A stretch of 64,000 nucleotides of DNA from the human T2T-CHM13v2.0 reference genome, Homo sapiens. The position numbers and the translations under genes are program-made. Below, piece after piece: positions 6,001-62,739 of the stretch. How positions within the stretch are numbered: the first letter of the stretch is position 1; the number at the start of each line of letters is the position of its first letter. The notes under the pieces are model-generated. The model was not told where the DNA came from. It saw only the letters and a list, made by a program, of their open reading frames with translations, and did not search any database. Location: assembly GCA_009914755.4 (NCBI GenBank), contig CP086569.2, positions 23,136,001-23,200,000 on the forward strand. Direction: 5' to 3'.

Positions 6001-6667
6001 TGTTCCGTACCTACCTTATTTATCCTAATACTACTTTATCAACAAAGAGCAAATATGTTCTCTTTAATAGCACTAAGGCTATTGCATACCATTTTCTGGA
6101 GGCAATATACTGTAATAAAGAAGTTCTTTATTTCATGATGAACAGTTCTGTCATTCCAAGGCTTTTGCTACAACAACAACAACAAGATCTTACACAGACA
6201 TCTTTCTATACATATGTGAGTATATTTGAATATTTTTATTTTTGTTTGATGTATAGATCCAAAAGATTCATTAGAATTGCTTTCTTGTGTTTTTTTCATT
6301 TTTCCAATAAATGGTGACTGAAACAAATCATTTGTAGACGACTTCAACCTAATTGCCTGAGGTCAAAGAACTTGTGGCATTTATGACACTGATTATTTGA
6401 CATTTGTTAAGATTTGCTTACATACTATCATGTGACCAAATGTAAAATGGTAATAATGAAGTTTCATTTGTGTTTGAGAATATTGTTTCTCTCTAATTAT
6501 AGTAATTAGAAATTGATATATATCTATTAGAATGTTTAATTTTTCAAAACTTGTTTTTAATATTTTTTATAAACCTGACATATCAATCTCCAAGAAATTT
6601 TTATTGAAGTCACCCATTTTGGGTGTTGTAATATTATGGATTTGCCACAGTACTGGAAATAAATACG

Positions 6668-6865
6668 ATGCATATATGTATGTGTATACACACCTATACC
6701 CACAAATATATATATACACACACACACACACATATATACATATATATATACACACATGCATGCATGTGTATATTTGCACATATATACACGGTGTTTATAT
6801 GTGCATATGTGTATGTGCACATATATTTATGTGTGTGTATGTATATATACACACAAATATATGGA
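6668..6865. repeat. compound alternating purine/pyrimidine microsatellite: (CA/TG)n, (TA)n, (CATG)n
   Basis: Runs acacacacacacacaca, atatatatata and catgcatgcatgtgtat are read directly. The overlapping ORFs 6532-6906 (H/Y/T/C-rich) are repeat artefacts. Confidence 0.85.
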
Positions 6866-8862
6866 GAAAGAAATCGATTATAAATAGTTGGTTCCTGCAG
6901 TTATGAAGGCTGGCAAGTTCTAATACAGTTGGCATTTTGGACACCCAGGAGGATTGATAGTATAGTTATAGTCTGAGTCCAAAGGCCAGAGACCCAGGGT
7001 GGCCAATGGTGTGTTTCCAGTTTGAAGGCTGGTAACCTTGAGATCTGGGAAGAGCCAAGGTTTTAGTTTGAATCTAAAGGCAGAAAAATTCAAAGCCCTA
7101 GCTCAAATACAGTCAGGAAGGAAGTATACCCTTATATTTTATCCTTTTTGTTCCACTCAAATCTTATATCTTTCTTATTCATTAATGAAAAGGTTAATCT
7201 CATCCAGAAACACCCTCTCAGACACAACAGAATAATGCTTGACCACACATCTGGGCACATAGTGGCCCAAACTGACACATAAAATAACCATATGGGTGGA
7301 TTAAAAAATACATATCCCTGAAATGTAATCCTTTTTGAGCATATACGTGTGCTTATTTTATTAGGTGCACACACATTTTAAGTAACTTCTTGTTGAAGAA
7401 AGACTTCCATGAGGAAACGGCCTTCTCTATCCTTAAAAATATGTATTTTCTTGTATTAAAGCTCACTTTTTATAAAATTAATATAAAGATATCATCTTTC
7501 TATTGATTAGTATTTACCTAGTTTATTTCTTTCTATCCTTTTATTTTCAGTCCCCATTTGTTTGATGCATTAGGCTTCTCTCTTGTTAAGTATTATTTAG
7601 CTTATATTTAATGAATGAGTTTAGATCATTTACATTTATTATGATTGTAAGAAATAAAGAGAGAGGAAAGAAACACAAAAAGTGGCTCACCAGTAATGAC
7701 AGATTTATTTTAGAGAAAACAAACCTGAGAGGGCACCTTCTGGCTGAGTTAGGTCAGAGGCACACTTTCTTAGAGACTAAGAGTTCTTAAGGATTCAGGG
7801 TGGGAGAGTTTATCAGAGGCTTGGACTGCTTCTGTGTTTCTTTGCTGTGCTTGTCTGGGAGGGAGAGTTTTGTGTCTTCCCATACATCTTTCTGCAGCTG
7901 CATGCTTGTCCCCCCAGTCTGCTTTTAGCTTCCCTAACATAGAGCACCTGAAGGGAAAGGAATGTGCTTAATAAGGACCACTGTTTTACTGGGGTCCATT
8001 GTATGAGGGGAAGTTTGGCAGTTACTCAAGGGACTTTCCCTTCATCTCCCTCTGTGCTGAGTTGTCTCATTTGTGTTTTACTGCCTGCTCTTTTGAGCCA
8101 CTTGTAGTCAGAAGAGAAGTGATTTCCTTGAAATATATATGGCCAGAAAAGGAGATGGAATTTAAAAGTGGTGGTTTGTCCGAGATGCCACTGCTCCTGC
8201 TCTATCAATAATTATTGTTATGTTGGGACTTACTTCTAGCAGCTGGCTTTCTGCATATATATGTTCCTTTTGTCACCTAATAGTGGCAAGCAGCATTTCC
8301 TTGATTTTTAAGTGTTTGATATTAATATGATAATTTTCAGGTAATCCCAAACTCTGAAAAAATATATTGTAAATATCTTTTACATGTACTACAGATGTTG
8401 AAGAAATGAGCCATTCAAGAAAGGGCACCATATCAATAGACAATAGACATACCTAGCTTCAAATCTAGCTCTATGTGAATTTGTGCAAGCCATTGAAACT
8501 TTCTTTGCCTTAGTCTTTTGATCTAGGAAATAAGTGTTATAATAATACTATCTCATACACTTTACCATTAAAATTAAATCAAGTAATATTTGTAAAGCAT
8601 GTACAACAGTGACTGTTGCATACTAAGTAAGGTATGCCTTTATTGAATATAATCCAGTAATTAAATGTTAACATTTTCCCATATCAGTTAATCTCTCTTA
8701 GGAGTTGGAAAAGTAAATAAATATTATGAGAGTGTTGAAGGCTGTACAACACCTCCCATCCTTTCTTCCTTCTTTCTTTCCACAGGTAATCATTATCCTG
8801 AATTTTATGTGTAATTCTCCCACATACATGTATTATAGAGTAAATATTTATCCATATATATA

Positions 8863-8898
8863 TATCTATATATTTATATATATATATGCATATGCTAT
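8863..8898. repeat. short imperfect (TA)n microsatellite
   Basis: The run tatatatatatctatatatttatatatatatatgcatatgc is read directly. Confidence 0.7.
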
Positions 8899-9394
8899 TG
8901 CTTTGGAGGCATTTAAAGAGTATATAAATATTTCATACCAAATGTATCCCTTTGCAATTTAGTTTTCAAATTTGTTATTATAGTTTTGAAATTGCAAATG
9001 TTTATACTGACAGTTCTATTTCATTCGTTTTAACCACTGTATTACATTTCATTATGTGAAAGAAAAGCCATTTTTTACACATACTCTCCATTGAAGGAGA
9101 GTTGATATCTTTCCACAATTTCTTCTTAACCCCAAAACATTTTGTCCTGTTTTTTTAATAAACATATAGAAGTGTTTTTATAGTGTATATCAAAAAATAA
9201 AAGTTCCTGGCAATTTGGTGTGCCTGTCTTCAAATCTACCAAGCATAACTAAAGAACTCTCTGAAGTTACCGTAACAGTGTATTAAGTACTAAGGTTCCT
9301 GCTTCCCTATAGCCTTGTCAACACTTGATCATATTTGACTTTTCAATTTTAGTCAGTATCGTGGATAGAAAATGGCCTTTTATAGTGGTTTTAA

Positions 9395-11213: not shown

Positions 11214-12025
11214 TTTCATTTTGTTTAGTTCTTATTCTACCTGTGCTTATTCTTTATTTTTAAAGAGAAAAACAAGACACAAGATTAAAATATTTTTATG
11301 CAATCTACATAGAAGTAACCCTCTATGTCACTTAGAATGCATGTGTGTGTGTGTAGAAATATTTGAGTTCCTTTTTATTACTTTGCCACTACGTCAATAG
11401 GTAGAATTTGTGTTCTTTTCCATTAATTAACAAAAATAATGTGTGGGTATGGTTGTGTGACTTTAAAACTCAAAACAAGTTTATTTTATTATAAAACAAT
11501 TTAATTTTGTGAAATCAGGCATAGATTTTAAAATATCTTTAAATAAATTTGAAGTCATCAAACTTCTTTTAAATTCAATAAAGTACCTTTTTTTGTTTGT
11601 TTTTTGATGGTCTCAAATCTTGCTCCATGTCATTTTCTCAGAGAAAATGAATAACATAACATCATCTTTACCAATTCAAAATTATCACTGCCTTACCTCT
11701 GCTTGATCTTAGTCTTAGCTCATTTTATTGGGAAACTTCATGGTCTTTATATCAACTAAGTTATTGAAGGCTTCAAAATTGAGTTGTTAAATAAACTGAT
11801 TATCACCTATTTCTGTGGTGGTACTACTCGTACTCAGGGTGCTGGAGATGATACCATTTCATGGACTTAAGTTTCAAATCAAAGACAACTAAATCAGGTT
11901 GAATTATTCACTGCTTTTCCTTGGCCAACTGACATTACGGTCTATTCAGTAACATTTTAATGCCTGTACATTAGGTCAAAAAAAGCACAAGGCATGGTTC
12001 AATTGGACTTCTAATTTAAAATGAG

Positions 12026-12129
12026 GAAAGAAGGAGGGAAGGAGGGAAGGAGGGAAAGAAGGAAGGAAGGGAGGGAGGAAGGAAGGAAGGGAGGGAGGGA
12101 GGGAGGAAGGGAGGGAGGGAGGAAGGAAG
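12026..12129. repeat. (GGAA)n/(GGGA)n purine microsatellite
   Basis: The run gaaggagggaaggagggaaggagggaaagaaggaaggaagggagggagg is read directly. Confidence 0.9.
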
Positions 12130-14895: not shown

Positions 14896-15008
14896 TTCTT
14901 TCTTTCTCTTTCTTTCTTCCCTTTCTTTCTTTCCTTCTTTCTTTCTTTTTTCTTTCTTTCTTTCTTTCTGTCTCTTTCTTTCTTTCTTCCTTCCTTCCTC
15001 TTTCTTTC

Positions 15009-15084
<76 letters not shown>

Positions 15085-15112
15085 TTTCTTCCTTTCTGCT
15101 TTTTTTTTCTTT
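14896..15112. repeat. (TTTC)n polypyrimidine microsatellite (about 50 units, with ttcc/tctc variants), derived from the A-rich tail of the adjacent minus-strand Alu
   Basis: ctttctttctttc is read continuously. The ORFs 14804-15279 (SFFLSFFL) and 14870-15178 (KKERKKER) are artefacts of this tract. Confidence 0.9.
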
Positions 15113-16020: not shown

Positions 16021-16301
16021 GCCAAGTGCAATGGCTCACATCTGTAATCCCAGCACTTTGTGAGGCTGAGTTGGATCGATCACTTGAAGTCAGGAGTTCA
16101 AGACCAGCCTAGGTAATATGGCGAAACCCCAACTCTACTACAAATGAAAAAATTAGCCAGGCATGGTAGTGAATGCCTTTTTTCCACATACTCAGGAGGC
16201 TGAGAAAGAGGAATCACTTGAACCCAAAGTTGGAGATTGCAGTGAGCCGGGATCATGCCACTGCACTCCTGCCTGGGTAACAGTGAGACTCTGTCTCAAA
16301 A

Positions 16302-16302
<1 letters not shown>
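16021..16302 (+). mobile_element. Alu, older and diverged (AluS/J-like); its tail has been replaced by (TA)n
   Basis: Alu left-arm consensus gccaagtgcaatggctcacatctgtaatcccagcactttgtgaggctgag is present and the element ends in gcctgggtaacagtgagactctgtctcaaaa. Confidence 0.88.

Positions 16303-16362
<60 letters not shown>
16303..16362. repeat. (TA)n microsatellite, about 30 units
   Basis: An uninterrupted atatatat run is read directly. The ORFs 16163-16419 (YIYIYI) are artefacts. Confidence 0.92.
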
Positions 16363-16368
<6 letters not shown>

Positions 16369-17668
16369 AAATATAAAAACTCCAGGATATCCTGTTGCCT
16401 GTGTATTATACATCATCATTTAAAGAACAGAACCCCTATTTATAAAAATGAGACTATGCCAGCAATGATATTAATATTAAAGTTTAATTTTTAAGTTCAT
16501 TATTAAAAGGAGCCTTAAAAAGATGCAGAATGGATAAAGTTCCAATGTGTATCTTTAGTAAAGTAGGAAGAAGTTTTTGGATCAAAAGATGAATTAATGT
16601 CAAAATTTGTCATATGGAATCTCATATGTATGATACTGTGTATTAATGCTTTAGCACATGTGTTTGGCAATTTTGTGATAAAATGAGAAAAAAATCTTAA
16701 CATATCAACTTACCTTGTATTTAACAAAAAACAATCTCTACTAACCATATAAATTAAATTTAATATTTCATGTTTATTTGAATTATAATAAATTTGTCAT
16801 GGAGAATAAGTGTGTGTGTGTTTGAGAGAAGGAATTTCTTCTCATAAAATGGATTATGTTACAAAATTATTTCAAATTAGATATTTTGCAAAAGGTATAC
16901 ATTTTCCCATAGTAATAATGCCAAAAGAACTATAAAGATACATAACAATCTTTATAACTGCAGGATCCAATATTAATAAAGACTGCCAGGCAAGACATAA
17001 TTCACTTTGATTCCAAAATAAGTAGGAGGGTGGTTAGAAGAGGGGAGGAATACAGCCAGTGGAAGTGAGGAAAAGATCTGACAACTGAACATCTCTAAAT
17101 CAGGAGCAAGGGTTAAAACTTTCTAGGTATGGATTTCTAGTAGAAAGGTAACATGTACAAGTCAATTGCAATCTAATTGTTCACAGAATAAAAAACACCT
17201 AACAGCTTATTATTTAAAATTAATAGTCCTGTTGTTTAGCACATATTCATACTTTCCATGGCAGAATTGTGCTTTCCTTTTGCTTGTTTCCTGTTAGGGG
17301 CCAATGGGATGCTCAGACATGGGAAACAAGGAAGGTCTTGAAATGTATTTGGCAACTGAACTTACACTCTTGCCTTCCTGCTTTTCTTTATAAGGAGAAA
17401 ATAACTTAACTGCAGGCTTAAAGAGAACACATTAGAGTAGACCGAGACAAAATCAAGTCCAACTAAGCTTAGAAGAGTAAAAAAATCCCTCTTTATCTTC
17501 AATTACAAGGGCAAAAAGTACATGCTTACTGTAAAATGCCACAAGTTTTGGTATGGGTAATTAGGCAGCATTATTGATACACTAACTTTTACACTCTTTA
17601 CCTAAAAAAAATAGTTTTGCCAAACAAGCATTTGGTACAGAAAGTGTTAGACTAAGGCCTATACAGGA

Positions 17669-18185: not shown

Positions 18186-18217
<32 letters not shown>

Positions 18218-18345
18218 AGCAGATAAACAAAGAGAGACAGAACAGAGAGAGAGAAACAGGGAGAGAGAGAGAGAAAAGCAGATAAACAGAGAGAGGAAAA
18301 CAGAGAGAGAGAGACAGAGAGAGAGAGACAGAGATTCTTCAAAAA
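18183..18345. repeat. compound (GA)n/(GAGAGACA)n purine-rich repeat with a higher-order period of about 57 bp (gagagagaagcagataaaca...)
   Basis: Read directly. The minus-strand ORF 18154-18378 (LSLSLS) is an artefact. Confidence 0.85.
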
Positions 18346-22818: not shown

Positions 22819-23551
22819 TGAGAGGTGAAGCCAGCTGAGCTTCTGGGCAGGGTGGGAACTTGGAGAACTTTTGTGCCTAGCTAAAGGATTGTAAATGCAC
22901 CAATCAGCACTCTGTGTCTAGCTAAAGGATTGTAAACACATCAGTCAGCACTCTGTAAAATGCACCAGTCAGCAATCTGTAAAATGCACCAATCAGCACT
23001 CTTTAAAAGGGACCAATCAGCACTCTGTAAAAGGGACCAATCAGCCCTCTGTCAAATGGACCAGTCAGCAGGATATGGGGGGGGGGGGGGGTCAAATAAG
23101 GGTTGGCCACTCAGCCAACAATGGTAATCTGCTGGGGTCCCCTTCCATGCTGTGTAAGCTTTGTTCTTTCACTCTTCACAATAAATCTTGCTGCCGCTCA
23201 CTCTTTGAGTCCTCACTACCTTTTTGAGCTGTAACACTCCCCACAAGCATCTGTGGCTTCATTCCTGAAGTCAGTGAGACCATGAACCCACCAGGAGGAA
23301 CAAACGACTCCAGACCCACTACCTTTAAGAGCTGTAACACTCACTGCGAAGGTCTGTGGCTTCACTCCCAAAGTCAGTGAGACCACAAACCAACCAGAAG
23401 GAAGAAACTTTGGACACATCTGAACATCTGAAGGAAAAAACGCTGGACACACCATCTTTAAGAGCTGTAACACTCACCGTGAGGGTCCGTGGCTTCATTC
23501 TTCAAGTCAGCATGACCAAGAACCCACCAGAAGGAATAAATTCCAGACCCA
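22819..23551 (+). mobile_element. 5' LTR (LTR12 family). U3 carries about 6 tandem CCAAT-box repeats (ccaatcagcactctgtaaaa), a G15 homopolymer, an aataaa and three R/U5 repeats of gagctgtaacactcac..gtggcttcat
   Basis: The characteristic LTR12 tandem-repeat architecture is read directly. The LTR starts tgagaggtgaagccagctg and ends ..aattccagaccca. Confidence 0.75.
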
Positions 23552-41565: not shown

Positions 41566-41688
41566 TTTTTTTTTTTGAGACAGTCTCGCTCTGTCGCCCA
41601 GACTGGAGGGCATTGGCATGATTTCAGCTCACTGCAAGCTGCACTTCCTGGGTTCATGACATTCTCCTGCCTCAGCCTCCCAAGTAGC
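41566..41688 (-). mobile_element. partial Alu, about 123 bp, reverse complement of the right arm plus T-run
   Basis: The string tttttttttttgagacagtctcgctctgtcgcccagactggagggcattggcatgatttcagctcactgcaagctgcacttcctgggttcatgacattctcctgcctcagcctcccaagtagc is present. The flanks gaaactggttcac and gaagctggttgac look like an imperfect 13-bp TSD (11/13). Confidence 0.8.
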
Positions 41689-41791
41689 ATGGAAGCTGGT
41701 TGACTTTAATGCCCATGACAAATTTATTTGCACTTTCTATTTCTTAGATTATGTGAAAATGTAAAATCAATTGGAAATTTGGATGCTATTA

Positions 41792-42188
<397 letters not shown>

Positions 42189-42346
42189 GTTAGCTGGATG
42201 TGGTGGCATGCAACCAGATTTCCAGTTACTCTTGAGGCTGAGGGAGGAGAATCACTTGAACCCAGGAGGCAGTTGTTGTAGTGAGCCAAAGCCATTGCAG
42301 TCCAGACTGGGAAACAGAGTGAAACTCTGTTGCAAAAAAAAAAAAA
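42189..42346 (+). mobile_element. old, diverged Alu right arm with poly-A, right half of the split older Alu
   Basis: The string gttagctggatgtggtggcatgcaaccagatttccagttactcttgaggctgagggaggagaatcacttgaacccaggaggcag..ccattgcagtccagactgggaaacagagtgaaactctgttgc is followed by an A-run. Confidence 0.7.
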
Positions 42347-42349
42347 ACC

Positions 42350-43506
<1,157 letters not shown>

Positions 43507-46170
43507 AGATATATATATATCATATATATATATGATATATATATATAGGTATATATATAGGATATGTATATATGATATATATATAGGATATATATAAAGG
43601 ATATATATAGGATATATATATAGGATATATATAGGATATATATATAGGATATATATAGGATATATATAGGATATATACAGGATATGTATATAGGATATAT
43701 ACAGGATATGTATATAGGATATATATACAGGATATATACAGGATATATATACAGGATATATATACAGGATATATATAGGATATATATACAGGATATATAT
43801 ATAGGATATATATAGGAGATATATATATAGGATATATATATAGGAGATATATATATAGGATATATATATAGGAGATATATATATAGGATATATATAGGAG
43901 ATATATATAGGATGTATATATAGGATATATATATAGGATGTATATATAGGATATATATATAGGATGTATATATACGAGATATATATAGGAGATATATATA
44001 TATGATATACAGGAGATATATATATGGGATATATATAGGAGATATACAGGAGATATTTATAGGAGATATATATAGGAGATATACAGGATATATATATAGG
44101 ATATATATACAGGATATATATATAGGATATATATACAGGATATATATATAGGATATATATACAGGATATATATATAGGATATATATACAGGAGATATATA
44201 TAGGATATATATACAGGAGATATATATAGGATATATATACAGGAGATATATATAGGATATATATACAGGAGATATATATAGGATATATATACAGGAGATA
44301 TATATAGGATATATATAGGAGATATATATAGGAGATATATATAGGAGATATATATAGGATATATATATAGGAGATATATAGGATATATATATAGAGGATA
44401 TATATATAGGATATATATATAGAGGATATATATATAGGATATATATATAGGATATATATATAGGATATATATATATAGGATATATATATAGGATATATAT
44501 ATATGGGATATATATATAGGATATATATATATGGGATATATATATAGGATATATATATATGGGATATATATATAGGATATATATATATGGGATATATATA
44601 TAGGATATATATATATGGGATATATATATAGGATATATATATATGGGATATATATATAGGATATATATATATGGGATATATATATATGGGATATATATAT
44701 ATGGGATATATATATATGGGATATATATATGGGATATATATATATGGGATATATATATGGGATATATATATATGGGATATATATATGGGATATATATAGG
44801 ATATATATATATGGGATATATATATGTGGGATATATATGGGATATATATATGGGATATATATGGGTATATATAAGGGATATATATGGGATATATATATGG
44901 GATATATATAGGGGATGTATATATATGGGATATATATAGGGGATGTATATATATGGGATATATATAGGGGGTATATATATGGGATATATATAGTGGATAT
45001 ATATAGGATATATATAGGGGATATATATATAGGGGATATATATAGGATAGATATATAGGATATATATAGGGGATATATATAGGGGATATATATAGGATAT
45101 ATATATATAGGAGATATATATATAGGATATATATAGGAGATATATATATAGGATATATATAGGAGATATATATATAGGATATATATAGGAGATATATATA
45201 TAGGATATATATAGGAGATATATATATAGAGGATATATATATAGGGGATATATATATGGGATATATATAGGGGATATATATATAGGGGATATATGTATGG
45301 GATATATATATAGCGGATATATGTATAGGATATATATATAGAGGATATATATATCGGATATATATATAGAGGACTTGTATATAGGATATATATATAGGAC
45401 GTGTATACAGGATATATATATATATAGGACGTGTATACAGGATATATATATAGGACGTGTATACATAGTATATATATATAGGACGTGTATACATAGGATA
45501 TATATATAGGACGTGTATACATAGGACATATATATAGGACGTATATACATAGGATATATATATAGGACGTGTATACATAGGATATATATATAGGACGTGT
45601 ATACATAGGATATATATATATAGGACGTGTATACATAGGTTATATATATAGGACGTGTATACATAGGATATATATATAGGACGTGTATATATAGGATATA
45701 TATATAGGACGTGTATATATAGGATATATATATAGGACGTGTATATATAGGATATATATATGCATTGGTATATGTGTCTATACAGCATTGTAATTGTACC
45801 AAAACAGATATATATATAAAATATATATAGGATATATATAAAATATATATAGGATATATATATAAAATATATATAGGATATATATATAAAATATATATAG
45901 GATATATATATAAAATATATATAGGATATATATATAAAATATATATAGGATATATATATAAAATATATATAGGATATATATAAAATATATGCAGGATATA
46001 TATATAAAATATATATAGGATATATATAATATATATAGGTTATATAAAATATATATAGGATATATATAATATATATAGGATATATATATTATATATAGGA
46101 TATATATATTATATATAGGATATATATATAATATATATATAGGCTATACATATATGCATTGGTATATCTA
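43507..46170. repeat. AT-rich minisatellite array, about 2.66 kb (about 240 units). The core unit is GGATATATATA (11-13 bp) with sub-domains carrying distinct variants and higher-order units. It sits inside the L1 ORF2.
   Basis: Read directly. Successive blocks are (tatataggatatg)n, (caggatatatata)n, (ggagatatatata)n, (gggatatatatata)n, a 28-bp ggacgtgtatacataggatatatatata higher-order unit (45395-45745) and a 23-bp aaatatatataggatatatatat unit (45800-46010). The L1 junction string gtaattgtaccaaaacagatatatat occurs at 43488 and again at 45785. Confidence 0.95.
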
Positions 46171-47525
46171 TATACCAATGCAACAGATCAGTGGGCTCAG
46201 AAATAACACCACACTTCTACAAACATCTGATCTTCAACAAACCTTACAAGCAAAGCAATGTGGAGATCATTCCCTATTTAATAAATTTTGATGGGAAAAC
46301 TGGCTAGTCGTATGCAGAAAATAGTAACTGGACCCCTTCCTAACACGTTATACAAAAATTAACTCAAGATGGATTAAAGACTTAAATATAAGACCTAAAA
46401 CCATAAAAAGCCTAGAAGAAAACCTAGGCAATACTATTCAGGACATAGGCATTGGAAAAGACTTTATTACTAAAACACCAAAAGCAATGGCAACAAAAGC
46501 CAAATTTGACAAACGAGACCTAATTAAATAAAAAAACTTCTGCAGAGCAAAAGAAACTATCATCAGGTTGAACAGGCAACATGCAGAATGGGAGAAAATT
46601 TTTGCAATCTATCCATCTCACAAAGAACTAATACCCAGGATCTACAAAAAATTTAAACAAATTTAGAAGAAAAAAAAACAAGCTCATCAAAAAGTGGGAG
46701 AAGTATATGAACAGATACCACTCAAAAGAAGACACTTTTGCAGCCAACAGACATGGGAAGAAAAGCTCATCATCACTGATCATTAGAGTAATGCTAATGG
46801 AAACTACAGTGAGATACCATCTCATGCCAGTTAGAATGGCGATCACTAAAAAGTCAAGAAACAACAGATGCTGGAGAGATGTGGAGAAAAACAATGCTTT
46901 TCCACTGTTGGTAGCACTGTAAATTAGTTCAACCATTGTGGAAGATAGTGTGGTGATTCTTCAAGGATCTATAACTAGAAATACCATTTGACCCAGCAAT
47001 CCCATTACTGGGTATATACCCAAAGGGTTATAAATCATTCTACTATTAAGACACATGCACATGTATGTTTATCTTGGTACTGTTCACAATAGCAAAGACT
47101 TGCAACCAACCCAAATGCCCATCAATGTTAGACTGCATAAAGAAAATACAGCATATATACACCATGGAATACTATGCAGCCATAAAAATGATGAGTTTAT
47201 ATGCTTTGCAGAGACATGGATGAAGCTGGAAGCCATCATTCTCAGCAAACTAACACAATAACAGAATACCAAACACCCAATGTTCTCACTCATAAGTGTG
47301 AGTTGAACAATGAGAACACATGGACACAGCAAGGGGAACATTACACCAGGGAGCCAGCCTGTCAGTGGTGGGGGATAGGGAGGGAGAGCATTAGGATAAA
47401 TACCTAATGTAGATGATGGGTTGATGGGTGCAGCAAGCCACCATTGCATGTGTATACCTGTGTAAGTAACCTGCATGTATTGCACATGTACCCCAGAACT
47501 TAAAGTATTATAATAATTTTTAAAA
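46171..47525 (+). mobile_element. old L1, segment 2 (ORF2 C-terminus and 3' UTR), continuing the L1 from 43506
   Basis: It resumes exactly where segment 1 stopped in L1 coordinates (..ccaatgcaacagatcagtgggctcagaaataacaccacac..). ORF 46707-46922 MNRYHSKEDTFAANRHGKKSSSSLIIRVMLMETTVRYHLMPVRMAITKKS is ORF2p C-terminus. The L1 3' UTR ends ..gtaccccagaacttaaagtattataataat. Confidence 0.85.
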
Positions 47526-55856: not shown

Positions 55857-59118
<3,262 letters not shown>

Positions 59119-60520: not shown

Positions 60521-62449
60521 ATGTGGATTTTTTCAAAAACATAAGCAACTTTTTATGTTCTTTTGGAAATTTGTGTCTGTATGCGTTTTTTTGACACAGA
60601 AAGTAGTACATAGAGAAGCTTTTACAAATGTTTCAACTATATTTGAATTTTATTTTAATACCCCATATTAAATTACCCTCTGATCTGGTTTTTTAATGCT
60701 TTTAAGTCTGAGCATAATAACTCACTAAAAAGATTTCTGTAGGGCTTGGGTTCTGCTAACATTATTTTCTTGGCTGTATTTTATCTAAGTTCATTATGCA
60801 AACAATTTGCATTGTGTCATCAAAAATGACTTCTGAAAGCCTTCTGTGGCCCCTGTTATGCCACTAACCATAATGGGGTAACGGGGACCATATTTACCCT
60901 CCCAGGTTAAATAACTATAAAACTAGACAGAAATATGAAACAAAGACTGTTCTACATTCAATTACAGGCAGCATCAAACAGTAATTTCTCAGAAAAGATG
61001 AACAAAGACAGTGTAAGGATGAACCTTGCTTTTCACCAGGCCATAACTTAGTGGGTGTTACTATATTGAGAAGACTAAAATCAGAGTTCAACTATATCAA
61101 GAAAGCTAGAATGTGTAGAGCAAAATGCCAGGAAAAAAAGAGGACTTACACAAAAAGAAAACCCCAGAGATGCAAGAGAGTTGATGCAGGTCTTCTGCTG
61201 GCTGTTAATCTGCATATCCCTGTGAGAAAATTGTCTGAAGCTTAAAAGAAAGCACTGGAACAAAACTATTCCCTGTACATGCATCTATAATGCCGATTGG
61301 GCAGAATACTTTGACTTTGGTTCTGGGTAAGTAGCATAGCATGATCTTCATATTATTTCTTTAGCTATGTTCAATATCTGAAATGTATGAGAGTGCCTTA
61401 ATGGCTTAGGTTGTAGTTGTTTTAAGAGCCTGTGATGAGACTTTGCTGAGGTTTGGTGTGCTGGTCAGGCCTGAAATCAGGCTCCTTGGTAGCATCAGAA
61501 AACAGCAGCTGTGGCAGCTGCATTGGGCAGGTAAGTCCTAGGGGTCCCAGGCATCATGGGAGGGCCCCACTGTGGTGGCTGTGGACTAGGTGGGCCAGAT
61601 TTTGGTCCCCCATGTGGTACATGTGGGTGCCTATAATGGCAGTAACAGCTTAGGTTCTGGGTTGTGGGTCCTGACATGACACTCAGCAGTGTCTGGTTGT
61701 CTTGCTGCTGAGAGGTTGGGAGGAGTTGGTGCCTCAGTGGCAGCAACCTTAGGCAGGTATTTCCCACGCTCTATGGGTCACACATTTTTGTTCCCTATGT
61801 TTTGGAGCAGCCTCTCAAATATGCTAGAATGCCTATTCCCTGGGGTATAGGATGCTGCATCATTTCCATTACCATGGACCCAGACACACTGCTGCACCCA
61901 GCTGACATCGTGACACTGAGGCCTTTGGGTGGACAAGAGGGCATGTCAGCAAGGACCCAGGATATGGAGATGCAGGGGATATTGGAGCCCTGGGCAAAAG
62001 CTGTCTAGAACCTACATCAGCCTCAATATTGGGCCACACACCAGCAATGTGGGCCTCTGTGGGCATGGGGTCTTGTGTGAGTTCCCTCCCTGGGACAATG
62101 TAGTTGGGTGGCGATCAGGCATGTCTCTGTATTAGTCTTAGGACATGTCCTCACAGGCCAAGGGGATTCTCTGCATCTAGGATTGCAAATGTGGTCTTTC
62201 TTTCTCCTCCAGCAGAGAATTCCTTTTGGTTTTGAGCCAATTCCAGCTGGCTGCTTTGGTCCCTCTCTATACTGCTGCCATCCTGAGTTTTTATGCCTCA
62301 GAGAGTCACAGTCACTTCCTTGCTGAATTCCAGCATTCTCCCAAAGATGTTCAATTCAATGCATAGTCATCTATTTGCTATTTTGGACCTTCTTTATGGA
62401 GGAGGTGAGTCTTGAGTGACTCTAGCAGCCATCTTTATCCTTTTGTTGT

Positions 62450-62739
62450 TGTTATTTTATTATTTATTTGTTTATTGAGATGGAGTCTTGATCTGTTGCC
62501 CAGGCTGGAGTGCAGTGGAGCGATTTCAGCCCACTGCCACCTCCACCTTCTTCTGTCAGCCTCCCAAGTACCTGGGATTACAGGCCCCCACCACCAAGTG
62601 TGGCTAATTTTTTGTATTTTTAGTAAAGATGGGGTTTTGCATATTGGCCAGGCTGGTCTCAAACTCCTGGCCTCAGATGATCTACCCACCTCGGCCTCCC
62701 AAAGTGCTGGATTATAGGCGTGACCCACCACACCCAGCC
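62450..62739 (-). mobile_element. Alu (AluS-like) with a (TTTA/TTTG)n-modified T-rich tail
   Basis: The string tttattatttatttgtttattgagatggagtcttgatctgttgcccaggctggagtgcagtggagcgatttcagcc runs through ..gctggattataggcgtgacccaccacacccagcc. Confidence 0.85.

What the first reader, a model, noticed from the sequence alone, without database searches (positions are those of the whole stretch)
43507..46170. 2.66-kb AT-rich minisatellite expanded from a 9-bp seed inside an L1 ORF2
The canonical L1 sequence ..ccaaaacagAGATATAGAtcaatggaacag.. is replaced by about 240 tandem units of GGATATATATA-type repeats, sandwiched exactly between the two halves of an otherwise collinear old L1. The array is internally structured. 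Successive domains have their own variant unit, including a 28-bp higher-order unit ggacgtgtatacataggatatatatata (about 45395-45745) and a 23-bp unit aaatatatataggatatatatat (about 45800-46010). The L1 junction string gtaattgtaccaaaacagatatatat is duplicated (43488 and 45785). This means the array grew by several rounds of unequal exchange or slippage that also copied flank sequence. Arrays of this size and AT-richness resemble the expanded AT-rich minisatellites underlying rare fragile sites (FRA16B and FRA10B types). They are prone to hairpin or cruciform formation, replication stalling and length polymorphism. This is the single most unusual structure in the window.
Basis: partly seen in the sequence, partly recalled or inferred. 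Interest (0 to 1): 0.6.

Follow-up and report, generated by a model that had tools for sequence, protein, structure and literature searches.

The report
AT-rich minisatellite inside a dead L1
A 2.66-kb run of about 200 TA-rich 13-bp repeats has grown inside a dead L1 retrotransposon in a primate genome; it is real and large, but it belongs to a known class of AT-rich repeat DNA, and its suspected instability could not be tested here.

Summary
TRF finds one array at 43508-46154: period 13, about 202 copies, or 28-bp dimers at 87% match. It is by far the largest tandem repeat in the window.

The flanks are one collinear, dead L1. Joined, they align ungapped to human ORF2p 778-1147, and the junction falls at residues R894/D895. 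A second L1 in the window keeps the uninterrupted site, ccaaaacagAGATATAGAtcaatgg.

- There are about 200 monomers, not 240.
- The "23-bp" unit is really 24 bp, followed by 20-bp units.
- The internal flank copy carries both junctions. The locus is therefore two tandem modules, each [L1 left flank – array – inverted copy of L1 right flank].
- In-register unequal exchange cannot produce that arrangement. It needs a tandem duplication with breakpoints outside the array.

Physically the array is a flexibility island of 2.77 kb with 66% AT/TA dinucleotides. That equals the published FRA16C AT-dinucleotide-rich sequence. It falls short of every fragility threshold I could apply:
- It is shorter than 3 kb.
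- At most 2 consecutive segments fold below −40 kcal/mol, where 7 are required.
- The longest pure TA run is 15 bp.
- The body folds no better than dinucleotide shuffles.

Polymorphism and orthology could not be tested. Verdict: a new member of a known kind, of modest interest.

The parts
42348..43506 (+). 5' part of the old, dead L1: ORF2 from the reverse-transcriptase domain up to codon R894.
   Evidence: It is 80% identical to the in-window L1 at 56550-57749. RVT_1 hits have E = 5e-13 and 4e-10. It aligns to human ORF2p from residue 778 to 894. It has many stop codons and frameshifts and almost no CpG, with obs/exp 0.03.
43507..45756 (+). Array A (module 1): about 2.25 kb of GGA(TA)n monomers, 11-15 bp long, arranged in successive variant and dimer domains.
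   Evidence: TRF results, the unit list and map and the period map. AT/TA dinucleotides are 65.5%.
43509..43546 (.). Perfect 38-bp palindrome at the left edge of the array: ATATATATATATCATATAT|ATATATGATATATATATAT.
   Evidence: Scan for perfect inverted repeats: 19-nt arms with no loop.
44086..44306 (+). 26-bp dimer domains: GGATATATATATA+GGATATATATACA, then GGAGATATATATA+GGATATATATACA.
   Evidence: Unit list. Identity at lag 26 is 0.99-1.00. The map shows ACACACAC DCDCDCDCD.
44491..44672 (+). 28-bp dimer domain, GGATATATATATAT+GGGATATATATATA, 6.5 copies with no mismatch.
   Evidence: Unit list. Identity at lag 28 is 0.99-1.00.
44673..45300 (+). Domains in which the G separator is GGG or GGGG. 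Relaxed G-quadruplex motifs (loops up to 12 nt) lie at 44673-44957 and 45244-45288.
   Evidence: G-run length table and motif scan; unit list.
45397..45749 (+). 28-bp higher-order domain, GGACGTGTATACATA+GGATATATATATA, about 13 copies, each carrying a CpG.
   Evidence: TRF gives period 28, 13.2 copies, 93% match. There are 13 CpG in 353 bp, obs/exp 2.6, all at the same monomer position.
45757..45806 (+). Internal junction block. It holds a copy of the right junction (ATATGCATTGGTATAT..CTATAC, 45757-45783) joined to a copy of the left L1 junction (AGCATtGTAATTGTACCAAAACAG, 45784-45806). This marks the boundary between module 1 and module 2.
   Evidence: Three-way alignment and pairwise alignments. 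The best-fitting predicted duplication junction is 46175|43485. The 12-mer GCATTGGTATAT and the left-junction string AGCAT[G/T]GTAATTGTACCAAAACAG each occur only at these places in the 64-kb window.
45807..46154 (+). Array B (module 2): 24-bp units GGATATATATATA+AAATATATATA, grading into 20-bp units. It is 90% A+T.
   Evidence: TRF gives period 24, 15.5 copies, 89% match. See also the unit list, the period map and composition.
46061..46140 (.). Two adjacent near-perfect hairpin or cruciform-capable palindromes inside array B: 46061-46097 (17-bp arms) and 46100-46140 (18-bp arms).
   Evidence: Perfect inverted-repeat scan. The DNA fold of 45990-46200 has z = -5.58 against dinucleotide shuffles, and none of 200 shuffles folds as well.
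46155..46182 (.). 28-bp palindrome at the right junction, TGCATTGGTATAT-CT-ATATACCAATGCA. The right arm is L1 sequence. The left arm (46155-46167) is an inverted copy of it.
   Evidence: 26 of 28 bases are self-complementary. Among perfect inverted repeats of 12 nt or more (loop up to 6 nt), it is the only one in the window with more than one G/C per arm. It forms a 12-bp stem in the fold. The right arm aligns to L1 ATAGATCAATGGA.
46169..47517 (+). 3' part of the old L1: ORF2 from about codon D895 onward, then the 3' end.
   Evidence: It is 82% identical to the in-window L1 at 57743-59098. It aligns to ORF2p 895-1147. CpG obs/exp is 0.09.
57731..57762 (+). Comparator, not part of the array: a paralogous L1 in the same window with the uninterrupted site ccaaaacagAGATATAGAtcaatggaacag.
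   Evidence: Sequence read, self-BLAST and alignment.

Best explanation
This is a transposon-derived, complex AT-dinucleotide-rich minisatellite. It arose in place at the short TA-rich string (C)AGAGATATAGA in the ORF2 remnant of an old, inactive L1. It most likely has no function and is a neutral by-product of repeat instability.

**Shown.**
- The array interrupts a collinear L1 at ORF2p codons 894/895, with a 2-bp gap.
- It consists of about 200 monomers of the form GGA(TA)n.
- It shows four nested levels of duplication: (i) +/-2-bp TA slippage inside monomers, which are 11, 13 or 15 bp long; (ii) monomer duplication; (iii) amplification of 24-28-bp dimers into locally homogeneous blocks; (iv) one tandem duplication of the whole module, so the locus reads L-flank/array A/inverted-R // L-flank/array B/inverted-R/R-flank.
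- An inverted 13-bp copy of the L1 right flank sits at the end of both modules. It therefore predates the module duplication.

**Inferred.**
- Levels i-iii arose by replication slippage and unequal sister-chromatid or meiotic exchange.
- The inverted flank copy arose by a fold-back or template-switch event at a TA hairpin.
- The module duplication was a non-homologous tandem duplication, by replication template switch or end joining, with breakpoints near 43485 and 46175.
- Turnover is much more recent than the L1 insertion. Some blocks are perfect, and all 13 GGACGT monomers of one block keep a CpG that the L1 flanks have lost.

**Predicted, not shown.** The locus varies in length between haplotypes and is moderately hard to replicate. 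It is flexible, hairpin-prone DNA, most of all at its palindromic edges. In this allele it lies below the sizes and energies tied to cytogenetic fragility.
For: - **Array statistics:**
- **Monomer and variant map, showing dimer blocks:**
- **L1 identity and exact collinearity:**
- **Module duplication:** the internal block equals the right junction plus the left junction, and the informative strings occur nowhere else in the 64 kb.
- **Inverted flank copy and edge palindromes:**
- **Recent turnover:** lag identity reaches 1.00 in blocks. CpG obs/exp is 2.6 in the 28-bp block against 0.03-0.09 in the L1 flanks.
- **Physical class:** a continuous 2767-bp stretch lies above the 13.7 degree flexibility threshold (threshold from PMC6765107). 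AT/TA dinucleotides are 66% against 16% in the rest of the window. PMC6765107 gives the same two figures for the FRA16C AT-dinucleotide-rich sequence and for a stable control locus.
- **Precedent:** 23% of human minisatellites and satellites derive from transposable elements (PMC3389668).
Against: - No orthologous or allelic sequence could be obtained. The ancestral state, the order of events and any polymorphism are therefore inferred from a single haplotype.
- The seed origin rests on position and on a 6-bp shared core only.
- The hairpin potential of the array body is entirely compositional, with z = +0.75 and -1.15 against dinucleotide shuffles.
- In absolute terms the array body is unremarkable. 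With 200-nt windows, 8% of windows outside the array fold at least as well as the array average.
- The flexibility table was recalled from memory, although the threshold was checked in a paper.
- ViennaRNA DNA parameters only approximate Mfold.
Confidence: 0.75

Rival explanations
1. The locus is a true fragile-site sequence of the FRA16B/FRA10B (rare) or FRA16C (common) type. On this reading its AT-rich array stalls forks and causes breaks or gaps under distamycin A/BrdU or aphidicolin.
For: AT/TA dinucleotides are 66% and there is a 2.77-kb flexibility island. This matches the 2.2-3.4-kb FRA16C sequence, which by itself created a fragile site when moved to HPRT. Only 31 such sequences of 3 kb or more exist in the human genome, and 45% of them lie in fragile-site bands. 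The 300-nt fold energies average about -39 kcal/mol. That compares with -48 for nine FRA16B units and -27 for the window mean. In vitro, 14 FRA16B units are enough to stall forks.
Against: The array is below 3 kb, and below the >5 kb reported for FRA10B expression. At most 2 consecutive segments fall below -40 kcal/mol, where the published criterion needs 7. TA runs are interrupted every 11-15 bp by G runs on one strand, and the longest pure run is 15 bp. The array body folds no better than shuffles. The FRA16B unit is absent from the window. The chromosomal position is unknown.
Confidence: 0.08
2. The array did not grow from the L1 seed. On this reading a pre-formed AT-rich satellite or minisatellite fragment was captured into a break in the L1, and the nearness to AGATATAGA is coincidence.
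For: No ancestral state is available. The monomer has a GG(A) separator that the seed lacks. The rearranged junctions (an inverted flank copy and a duplicated flank) show that breakage and repair did happen here.
Against: The L1 is collinear, with only a 2-bp gap and no target-site duplication. The array begins and ends in the TA-rich seed itself. The GGAGATATATA variants resemble the seed context CAGAGATATA. No other copy of the repeat exists in the window. The leftmost units are plain TA runs separated by single bases, as an early microsatellite stage would look.
Confidence: 0.1
3. The array, or its two-module structure, is an assembly or sequencing artefact in a region that is hard to sequence.
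For: Long AT-rich repeats are classic sites of mis-assembly. The published FRA16C sequence differs between reference builds, 3.4 kb against 2.2 kb.
Against: The array has an ordered, non-random variant map with 59 distinct unit types in discrete blocks. The two modules have entirely different unit types, so neither is a collapsed or duplicated read of the other. Both junctions with the L1 are clean.
Confidence: 0.04
4. The array is a functional element, such as a scaffold/matrix attachment region, a DNA-unwinding element of a replication origin, or a nucleosome-excluding boundary.
For: It is very AT-rich, flexible DNA. AT-rich minisatellites can exclude nucleosomes in the presence of ligands.
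Against: Nothing in the sequence points to selection. The array sits in a dead L1 within AT-poor-to-average, repeat-filled surroundings. Its internal structure is what neutral turnover predicts. There are no Rfam hits and no conserved partner element.
Confidence: 0.03

Closest known systems
FRA16C AT-dinucleotide-rich sequence (AT-DRS), the flexibility island of Irony-Tur Sinai et al. 2019 (PMC6765107)
   Same: Both are complex mixtures of several AT-rich minisatellite types. Both have 66% AT/TA dinucleotides. The sizes are comparable: 2.2-3.4 kb between individuals and builds, against 2.66 kb here. Both form a continuous stretch above the 13.7 degree TwistFlex threshold.
   Different: The units are 32, 33 and 37 bp there and 13 bp (24-28 bp dimers) here. 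This array carries G runs on one strand only (79% A+T). It fails the fold criterion of at least 7 consecutive segments below -40 kcal/mol. It is under the 3-kb cut-off used for the genome-wide list. No experimental data exist for it.
Rare fragile-site minisatellites FRA16B (33 bp) and FRA10B (about 42 bp)
   Same: All are AT-rich minisatellites with internal variant structure. All can form multiple hairpins, and expansion occurs by unit duplication.
   Different: The unit length and sequence differ, and the FRA16B unit is absent from the window. Expressed alleles exceed 5 kb (FRA10B) or reach up to 2000 copies (FRA16B), against 2.66 kb here. FRA10B is 91% A+T, against 79% here.
Transposon-derived minisatellites (Ahmed & Liang 2012, PMC3389668)
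   Same: A tandem repeat initiated inside a transposable element and expanded by local unit duplication. Older elements carry more units.
   Different: Most such repeats have very few units. In that study even the oldest Alu class was characterised by the share of its repeats exceeding 3 units. This array has about 200 units and a higher-order, two-module architecture.
Palindromic AT-rich repeats (PATRR11/22/17/8) that mediate recurrent translocations. Own knowledge; the t(11;22) case is mentioned in PMC6765107.
   Same: AT-rich sequence with cruciform-capable palindromes. Here these lie at the edges: 43509-43546, 46061-46140 and 46155-46182.
   Different: PATRRs are single near-perfect palindromes of several hundred bp. 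Here the body is a direct repeat. The long inverted matches are only 71-77% complementary, and the perfect arms are 19 bp or less.
Expanded (TA)n microsatellites that make MSI cancers dependent on WRN (PMC9890227 abstract)
   Same: A TA-dinucleotide core able to fold back on itself.
   Different: Those are long uninterrupted (TA)n tracts. Here the pure TA runs are at most 15 bp. The window does hold a pure (TA)26 elsewhere, at 16311-16363.

Membership tests
Minisatellite / VNTR with higher-order structure | Head-to-tail tandem copies of a unit of about 10-100 bp | tested here: met
   TRF gives period 13 x 202 copies, with 24-, 26- and 28-bp dimers.
Minisatellite / VNTR with higher-order structure | Interspersed variant units arranged in blocks (a variant-repeat map) | tested here: met
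   There are 59 unit types, arranged in blocks such as ACACACAC, DCDCDCDCD, EHEHEHEHEHEHE and AIAI. Lag identity reaches up to 1.00.
Minisatellite / VNTR with higher-order structure | Length polymorphism between haplotypes | not testable with these tools
   No human or primate assemblies could be reached. Junction scans and exact-protein look-ups returned nothing.
Transposon-derived tandem repeat | The array is embedded in, and collinear with, a recognisable transposable element | tested here: met
   Alignment to ORF2p, RVT_1 hits, comparison with the paralogous L1.
Transposon-derived tandem repeat | The repeat unit is similar to the element's sequence at that position | tested here: inconclusive
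   Only the GATATA core and the AGAGATATA-like variants are shared with the 9-bp seed. That is too short for a statistical test.
AT-dinucleotide-rich flexibility island (AT-DRS, TwistFlex definition) | 100-bp windows with mean twist fluctuation above 13.7 degrees | tested here: met
   A continuous stretch at 43454-46220 (2767 bp), with mean 15.46 and minimum 14.13. The dinucleotide table was recalled from memory. The threshold was checked.
AT-dinucleotide-rich flexibility island (AT-DRS, TwistFlex definition) | Very high AT/TA dinucleotide share (66% in the reference example, against under 16% in a stable locus) | tested here: met
   66.0% in the array against 16.4% in the rest of the window (reference values).
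Long AT-DRS class linked to fragile-site bands | Length of at least 3000 bp | tested here: not met
   The island is 2767 bp and the array 2661 bp.
Sequence predicted fragile by the Mfold criterion (as used in PMC6765107) | At least 7 consecutive 300-nt segments (150-nt shift) with free energy below -40 kcal/mol | tested here: not met
   At most 2 consecutive segments qualify. The range is -29 to -51 on the + strand and weaker on the - strand. ViennaRNA DNA parameters were used in place of Mfold. The criterion is quoted.
FRA16B / FRA10B rare fragile-site minisatellite | 33-bp (FRA16B) or about 42-bp (FRA10B) AT-rich unit | tested here: not met
   The periods here are 13, 24, 26 and 28 bp. The FRA16B unit has no match at up to 3 mismatches.
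FRA16B / FRA10B rare fragile-site minisatellite | Expansion to more than 5 kb (FRA10B), or up to about 2000 copies (FRA16B), in alleles that express the fragile site | tested here: not met
   The array is 2.66 kb in this haplotype. Other alleles are unknown.
FRA16B / FRA10B rare fragile-site minisatellite | Cytogenetic gap inducible by distamycin A or BrdU | not testable with these tools
   This needs an experiment.
Palindromic AT-rich repeat (PATRR) | A single near-perfect palindrome of several hundred bp | tested here: not met
   The longest inverted pairs are 150-251 nt at 71-77% complementarity, which reflects TA self-complementarity. Perfect arms are 19 nt or less.
Long uninterrupted (TA)n cruciform-forming microsatellite | A long pure (TA)n tract | tested here: not met
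   The longest pure TA/AT run in the array is 15 bp and the median is 10 bp.

The most novel reading that the evidence does not exclude
This may be an unrecognised, highly length-polymorphic AT-dinucleotide-rich locus. On this reading its longer alleles (over 3-5 kb) would behave as a fragile site or fork-collapse hotspot. Its palindromic edges, namely the 38-bp perfect palindrome on the left and three stacked hairpins plus the L1-flank palindrome on the right, would be the points where breakage and template switching recur. The internal flank duplication and the inverted flank copy would then be fossil records of such events.
Probability: 0.12. Interest if true: 0.5.

Novelty: new member of a known kind. 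Interest (0 to 1): 0.3.

Why it matters
If the predictions hold, the locus would add one more natural test case to the class of long AT-dinucleotide-rich sequences, of which only 31 reach 3 kb in the human genome. At least one of that class is sufficient to create a fragile site. This locus has an unusually readable history. The dated L1 host gives an upper age limit and an exact empty-site reference. The nested duplication levels, the inverted flank copy and the whole-module duplication record distinct mutational mechanisms at a single site. For annotation, the G-free minus strand produces three stop-free ORFs of 581-780 aa, which naive gene callers could report as proteins. As it stands the array is an ordinary kind of sequence at an unusual size, with no evidence of function or disease relevance.

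Tried and rejected
1. **Allelic or orthologous copies.** I ran exact scans of the metagenome and prokaryote-genome collections with the right junction and the left junction.
2. **Exact-protein look-ups.** I looked up four ORFs from the flanks and the array, hoping to reach human or primate contigs. None is on record. I therefore judged the 13-CPU-hour homology search unlikely to help and did not run it.
3. **Full-text sequence search.** I searched the literature for four diagnostic strings. No papers matched.
4. **Supplementary table.** The list of 31 long AT-DRS in PMC6765107 is not held.
5. **Rfam scan of the window.** No hits, so no landmark to identify the locus.
6. **GC-rich stretch at 61400-62300.** I checked it as a possible CpG island or exon that might reveal the gene. 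CpG obs/exp is about 0.08 and there is no convincing ORF, so I dropped it.
7. **Special arrangement of the array body.** I rejected the idea that the body has an arrangement favouring hairpins. Its fold energies match dinucleotide shuffles. Only the right end exceeds them.
8. **PATRR and pure-(TA)n readings.** Both rejected.
9. **In-register unequal exchange as the source of the internal flank copy.** Rejected, because both junctions are present in the internal block.
Full report

Yes. Reading 43300-46400 shows an uninterrupted run of GGATATATATA-type units. Tandem Repeats Finder reports a single array at 43508-46154. Its period is 13 with 201.9 copies at 78% match, or period 28 at 87% match, and it scores 2678. 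Over the whole 64-kb window the next best tandem repeat scores 277.

The array is 79% A+T. It is strongly strand-asymmetric, with 495 G against 59 C on the + strand. The window is primate DNA, since several Alu signatures are present.

**2. The host element**

Three-frame translation of the flanks shows degenerate L1 ORF2 sequence with many stops and frameshifts.
- The upstream part hits Pfam RVT_1, with E = 5e-13 and 4e-10.
- I joined the left and right flank translations into one pseudo-protein. It aligns without a gap to human L1 ORF2p residues 778-1147 (8uw3_A, E = 2e-107). The junction falls at ...[13 protein letters not shown]..., that is at R894/D895.
- This places the site downstream of the reverse-transcriptase domain.

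A second, younger-looking L1 lies in the same window at 56550-59098. It is 80-82% identical to both flanks and keeps the uninterrupted site ccaaaacagAGATATAGAtcaatggaacag at 57731-57762.

With 43507-46167 removed, the old L1 aligns to this paralogue with only a 2-bp gap at the junction. The old L1 occupies 42348-43506 and 46169-47517. "Sandwiched exactly between two halves of a collinear old L1" is therefore correct.

**3. Anatomy of the array**

Splitting at GG gives 180 pieces of 59 distinct types. The commonest are:
- GGATATATATATA (26 copies)
- GGATATATATA (15)
- GGATATATATACA (12)
- GGAGATATATATA (10)

Counting the fused pieces as dimers gives about 204 monomers.

Monomer lengths of 11, 13 and 15 bp differ by TA steps. 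The variant map is blockwise: BABAB, NSNS, FAFAF, ACACACAC, DCDCDCDCD, EHEHEHEHEHEHE, KKK/LKLKL, FBFBFBFB, AIAI..., ARARAR, JJJJJ.

Local autocorrelation shows these are dimer higher-order repeats:

| Region | Lag (bp) | Identity |
|---|---|---|
| 44110-44290 | 26 | 0.99-1.00 |
| 44470-44650 | 28 | 0.99-1.00 |
| 45430-45700 | 28 | 0.87-0.96 |
| about 45850 | 24 | 0.97 |
| after 45970 | 20 | about 0.8 |

TRF on sub-ranges gives:
- 45390-45760: period 28 x 13.2 copies at 93% match, unit ATATATAGGACGTGTATACATAGGATAT.
- 45807-46154: period 24 x 15.5 copies at 89% match.

The "23-bp" unit is in fact 24 bp, made of a 13-mer plus an 11-mer whose GG has become AA. It decays to 20-bp units.

The G separator also changes by domain, from GG to GGG to GGGG and back to GG.

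**4. The flank copy is a module boundary**

It does: AGCAT[G/T]GTAATTGTACCAAAACAG occurs at 43485 and 45784, matching 21 of 22 bases by BLAST, and nowhere else in the window.

The bases just before the internal copy (ATATGCATTGGTATAT..CTATAC, 45757-45783) are in turn a copy of the right end of the array (ATATGCATTGGTATAT-CTATATAC, 46151-46175). The 12-mer GCATTGGTATAT occurs only at those two places, plus once as its reverse complement at 46170.

I modelled the internal block as a right-junction segment joined to a left-junction segment. The best fit has breakpoints at 46175 and 43485. It differs from the observed sequence only by a 4-bp GTGT insertion, a 2-bp TA loss and one G-to-T change.

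The locus is therefore two tandem modules:
- 43485-45783, containing array A of 2.25 kb
- 45784-46175, containing array B of 0.35 kb

Each module has the form [22-24 bp of L1 left flank – array – TGCATTGGTATAT – CTATA].

Unequal exchange or slippage within an array cannot copy sequence from outside it. This feature needs a tandem duplication whose two breakpoints lay in the flanks. After that event the two arrays evolved independently, and they now share no derived unit type.

**5. Palindromic edges**

TGCATTGGTATAT is the reverse complement of the L1 sequence that follows it. The right junction is thus a 28-bp palindrome, TGCATTGGTATAT-CT-ATATACCAATGCA, at 46155-46182, with 26 of 28 bases self-complementary. 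Its right arm aligns to L1 ATAGATCAATGGA. The left arm is therefore an inverted duplication of the flank. Both modules carry it, so it predates the module duplication.

I scanned the whole window for perfect inverted repeats with arms of at least 12 nt and loops of at most 6 nt. Such repeats occur in only two places:
- a pure (TA)26 microsatellite at 16311-16363
- this locus

At this locus they are:
- a perfect 38-bp palindrome at the left edge (43509-43546)
- three 12-nt cases in the GGG domain
- 46061-46097 (17-nt arms)
- 46100-46140 (18-nt arms)
- the flank palindrome, the only one with more than one G/C base per arm

I infer that the inverted copy arose by fold-back or template switching at a TA hairpin. 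That step is not shown.

**6. Age and turnover**

The L1 flanks have almost no CpG left: 5 in 2,508 bp, obs/exp 0.03-0.09. The 28-bp block has 13 CpG in 353 bp, obs/exp 2.6. All 13 GGACGT monomers carry it at the same position.

Some blocks are also perfect: 6.5 copies of 28 bp and about 4 copies of 26 bp have no mismatch.

Together these show that the current blocks were amplified or homogenised long after the L1 inserted. This fits a dynamic array but does not prove present-day polymorphism.

**7. Physical properties**

*Flexibility.* I used the twist-fluctuation table recalled from memory and the 100-bp window with the 13.7 degree threshold, which I confirmed in PMC6765107. The array forms one continuous flexibility island at 43454-46220. 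It is 2,767 bp long, with mean 15.46 degrees against a window mean of 11.18. The other peaks in the window are 262 bp or shorter.

*Dinucleotide content.* AT/TA dinucleotides make up 66.0% of the array and 16.4% of the rest of the window. PMC6765107 reports the same pair of values, 66% and under 16%, for the 3.4-kb FRA16C AT-dinucleotide-rich sequence and the stable HPRT locus.

*Single-strand DNA folding* (ViennaRNA, DNA parameters):
- 200-nt windows average -24.5 kcal/mol inside the array and -16.6 +/- 5.6 outside. Even so, 8% of outside windows fold at least as well as the array average.
- With the published scheme (300 nt, 150-nt shift), the array ranges from -29 to -51 on the + strand, mean about -39. 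The window mean is -27 +/- 7.8.
- In the same model, nine FRA16B units give -48.4 and (AT)150 gives -107.
- The published fragility criterion needs at least 7 consecutive segments below -40 kcal/mol. Here at most 2 consecutive segments qualify.

*Comparison with shuffles.* Against dinucleotide-preserving shuffles the array body is not special, with z = +0.75 for 44400-44699 and -1.15 for 45400-45699. Its hairpin potential comes purely from composition. Only the right end, 45990-46200, with its palindromes, stands out: z = -5.58, and none of 200 shuffles folds as well.

*Other measures.* Pure TA runs are at most 15 bp. Long inverted matches are only 71-77% complementary.

**8. Comparison with what is known**

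- **Origin.** This is a transposon-derived minisatellite, a documented class. 23% of human minisatellites and satellites derive from transposable elements, and they expand by local unit duplication (PMC3389668). This one has far more units than is typical.
- **Physical class.** It meets the operational definition of an AT-dinucleotide-rich flexibility island. It closely resembles the FRA16C sequence in composition and size. That sequence is 2.2-3.4 kb depending on build and individual, and was sufficient to create a fragile site at an ectopic locus.
- **Size.** It falls just short of the 3-kb class, of which only 31 exist in the human genome, 45% of them in fragile-site bands.
- **FRA16B or FRA10B.** It is not a member. 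The units differ (33 or about 42 bp), and the FRA16B unit is absent from the window. Alleles that express the fragile site exceed 5 kb or reach up to 2000 copies.
- **Other classes.** It is not a PATRR and not a long pure (TA)n tract of the WRN-dependent kind.

**9. What could not be done**

No human or primate assembly is reachable with these tools.
- Junction scans of the metagenome and prokaryote-genome collections found nothing.
- Exact-protein look-ups of four local ORFs found nothing.
- A full-text search for diagnostic strings found nothing.
- The supplementary list of long AT-DRS is not held.
- Rfam gave no landmark.

Chromosomal position, polymorphism, orthology and fragility therefore remain untested.

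**10. Verdict**

- The structural interpretation is supported, and the two-module, inverted-flank architecture sharpens it.
- The fragile-site analogy holds for composition. It fails every size, energy and unit test I could apply.
- The most likely account is a neutral, in-place-born, recently turning-over AT-rich minisatellite in a dead L1.
- Interest is modest at 0.3, and the array is a new member of a known kind.

Noticed in passing
window 43446-45802, minus strand: The minus strand of the array has almost no G, so TAG and TGA never occur. As a result three overlapping stop-free ORFs of 780, 726 and 581 aa run through the array (YIYI-type low-complexity 'proteins'). They are artefacts, but naive gene callers could report them. 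An exact look-up of the 780-aa product found no record.
   Followed up: partly
window 16302-16363: A pure (TA)26 microsatellite, with a 53-bp uninterrupted run. It is the only other perfect long palindrome in the window. It forms a separate flexibility peak at 16244-16434 and sits in the most stable 200-nt fold of the window. As a cruciform former it is a better candidate per base pair than the large array.
   Followed up: partly
window 44673-44957 and 45244-45288, plus strand: GGG and GGGG runs spaced by 10-12 nt of TA satisfy a relaxed G-quadruplex motif (loops up to 12 nt) on the G-rich strand. Stability with such long AT loops is doubtful and was not evaluated.
   Followed up: no
window 45397-45749: All 13 GGACGT monomers of the 28-bp block keep a CpG at the same position (obs/exp 2.6), while the surrounding L1 has obs/exp 0.03-0.09. 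This implies recent amplification or homogenisation of the block. The methylation state is unknown.
   Followed up: yes
window 56550-59098: A second L1 3' fragment on the same strand. It is less decayed (CpG obs/exp 0.20) and has an intact AGATATAGA site. It served as the in-window empty-site reference.
   Followed up: yes
window 41650-42347: Alu-like sequence with an A26 tract at 42163-42188 lies immediately upstream of the point where the old L1 alignment begins at 42348. I did not resolve whether the L1 is 5'-truncated there or interrupted by the Alus.
   Followed up: no
window 12024-12129, 14896-15112, 18186-18334: Purine/pyrimidine-asymmetric microsatellites: (AGGA)26, (TTCT)55 and (GA)75. 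They are potential triplex-forming tracts and lie within 7 kb of each other.
   Followed up: no
window 22872-23408: A cluster of 41-bp, 24-bp (5 copies) and 103-bp tandem repeats containing a CCAATCAGCAC motif. From memory it resembles the internal repeats of an LTR12-type element. I did not test this.
   Followed up: no
window 61351-62550: The longest run of 300-nt segments folding below -40 kcal/mol in the window: five consecutive, then a sixth. GC content of 50-53% explains it. CpG obs/exp is about 0.08, so it is not a CpG island, and there is no convincing ORF. It is probably an old repeat.
   Followed up: partly
window 6627-6896 and 8779-8957: Two further short flexibility peaks, 262 bp or less, over TA/CA-rich simple repeats.
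   Followed up: no
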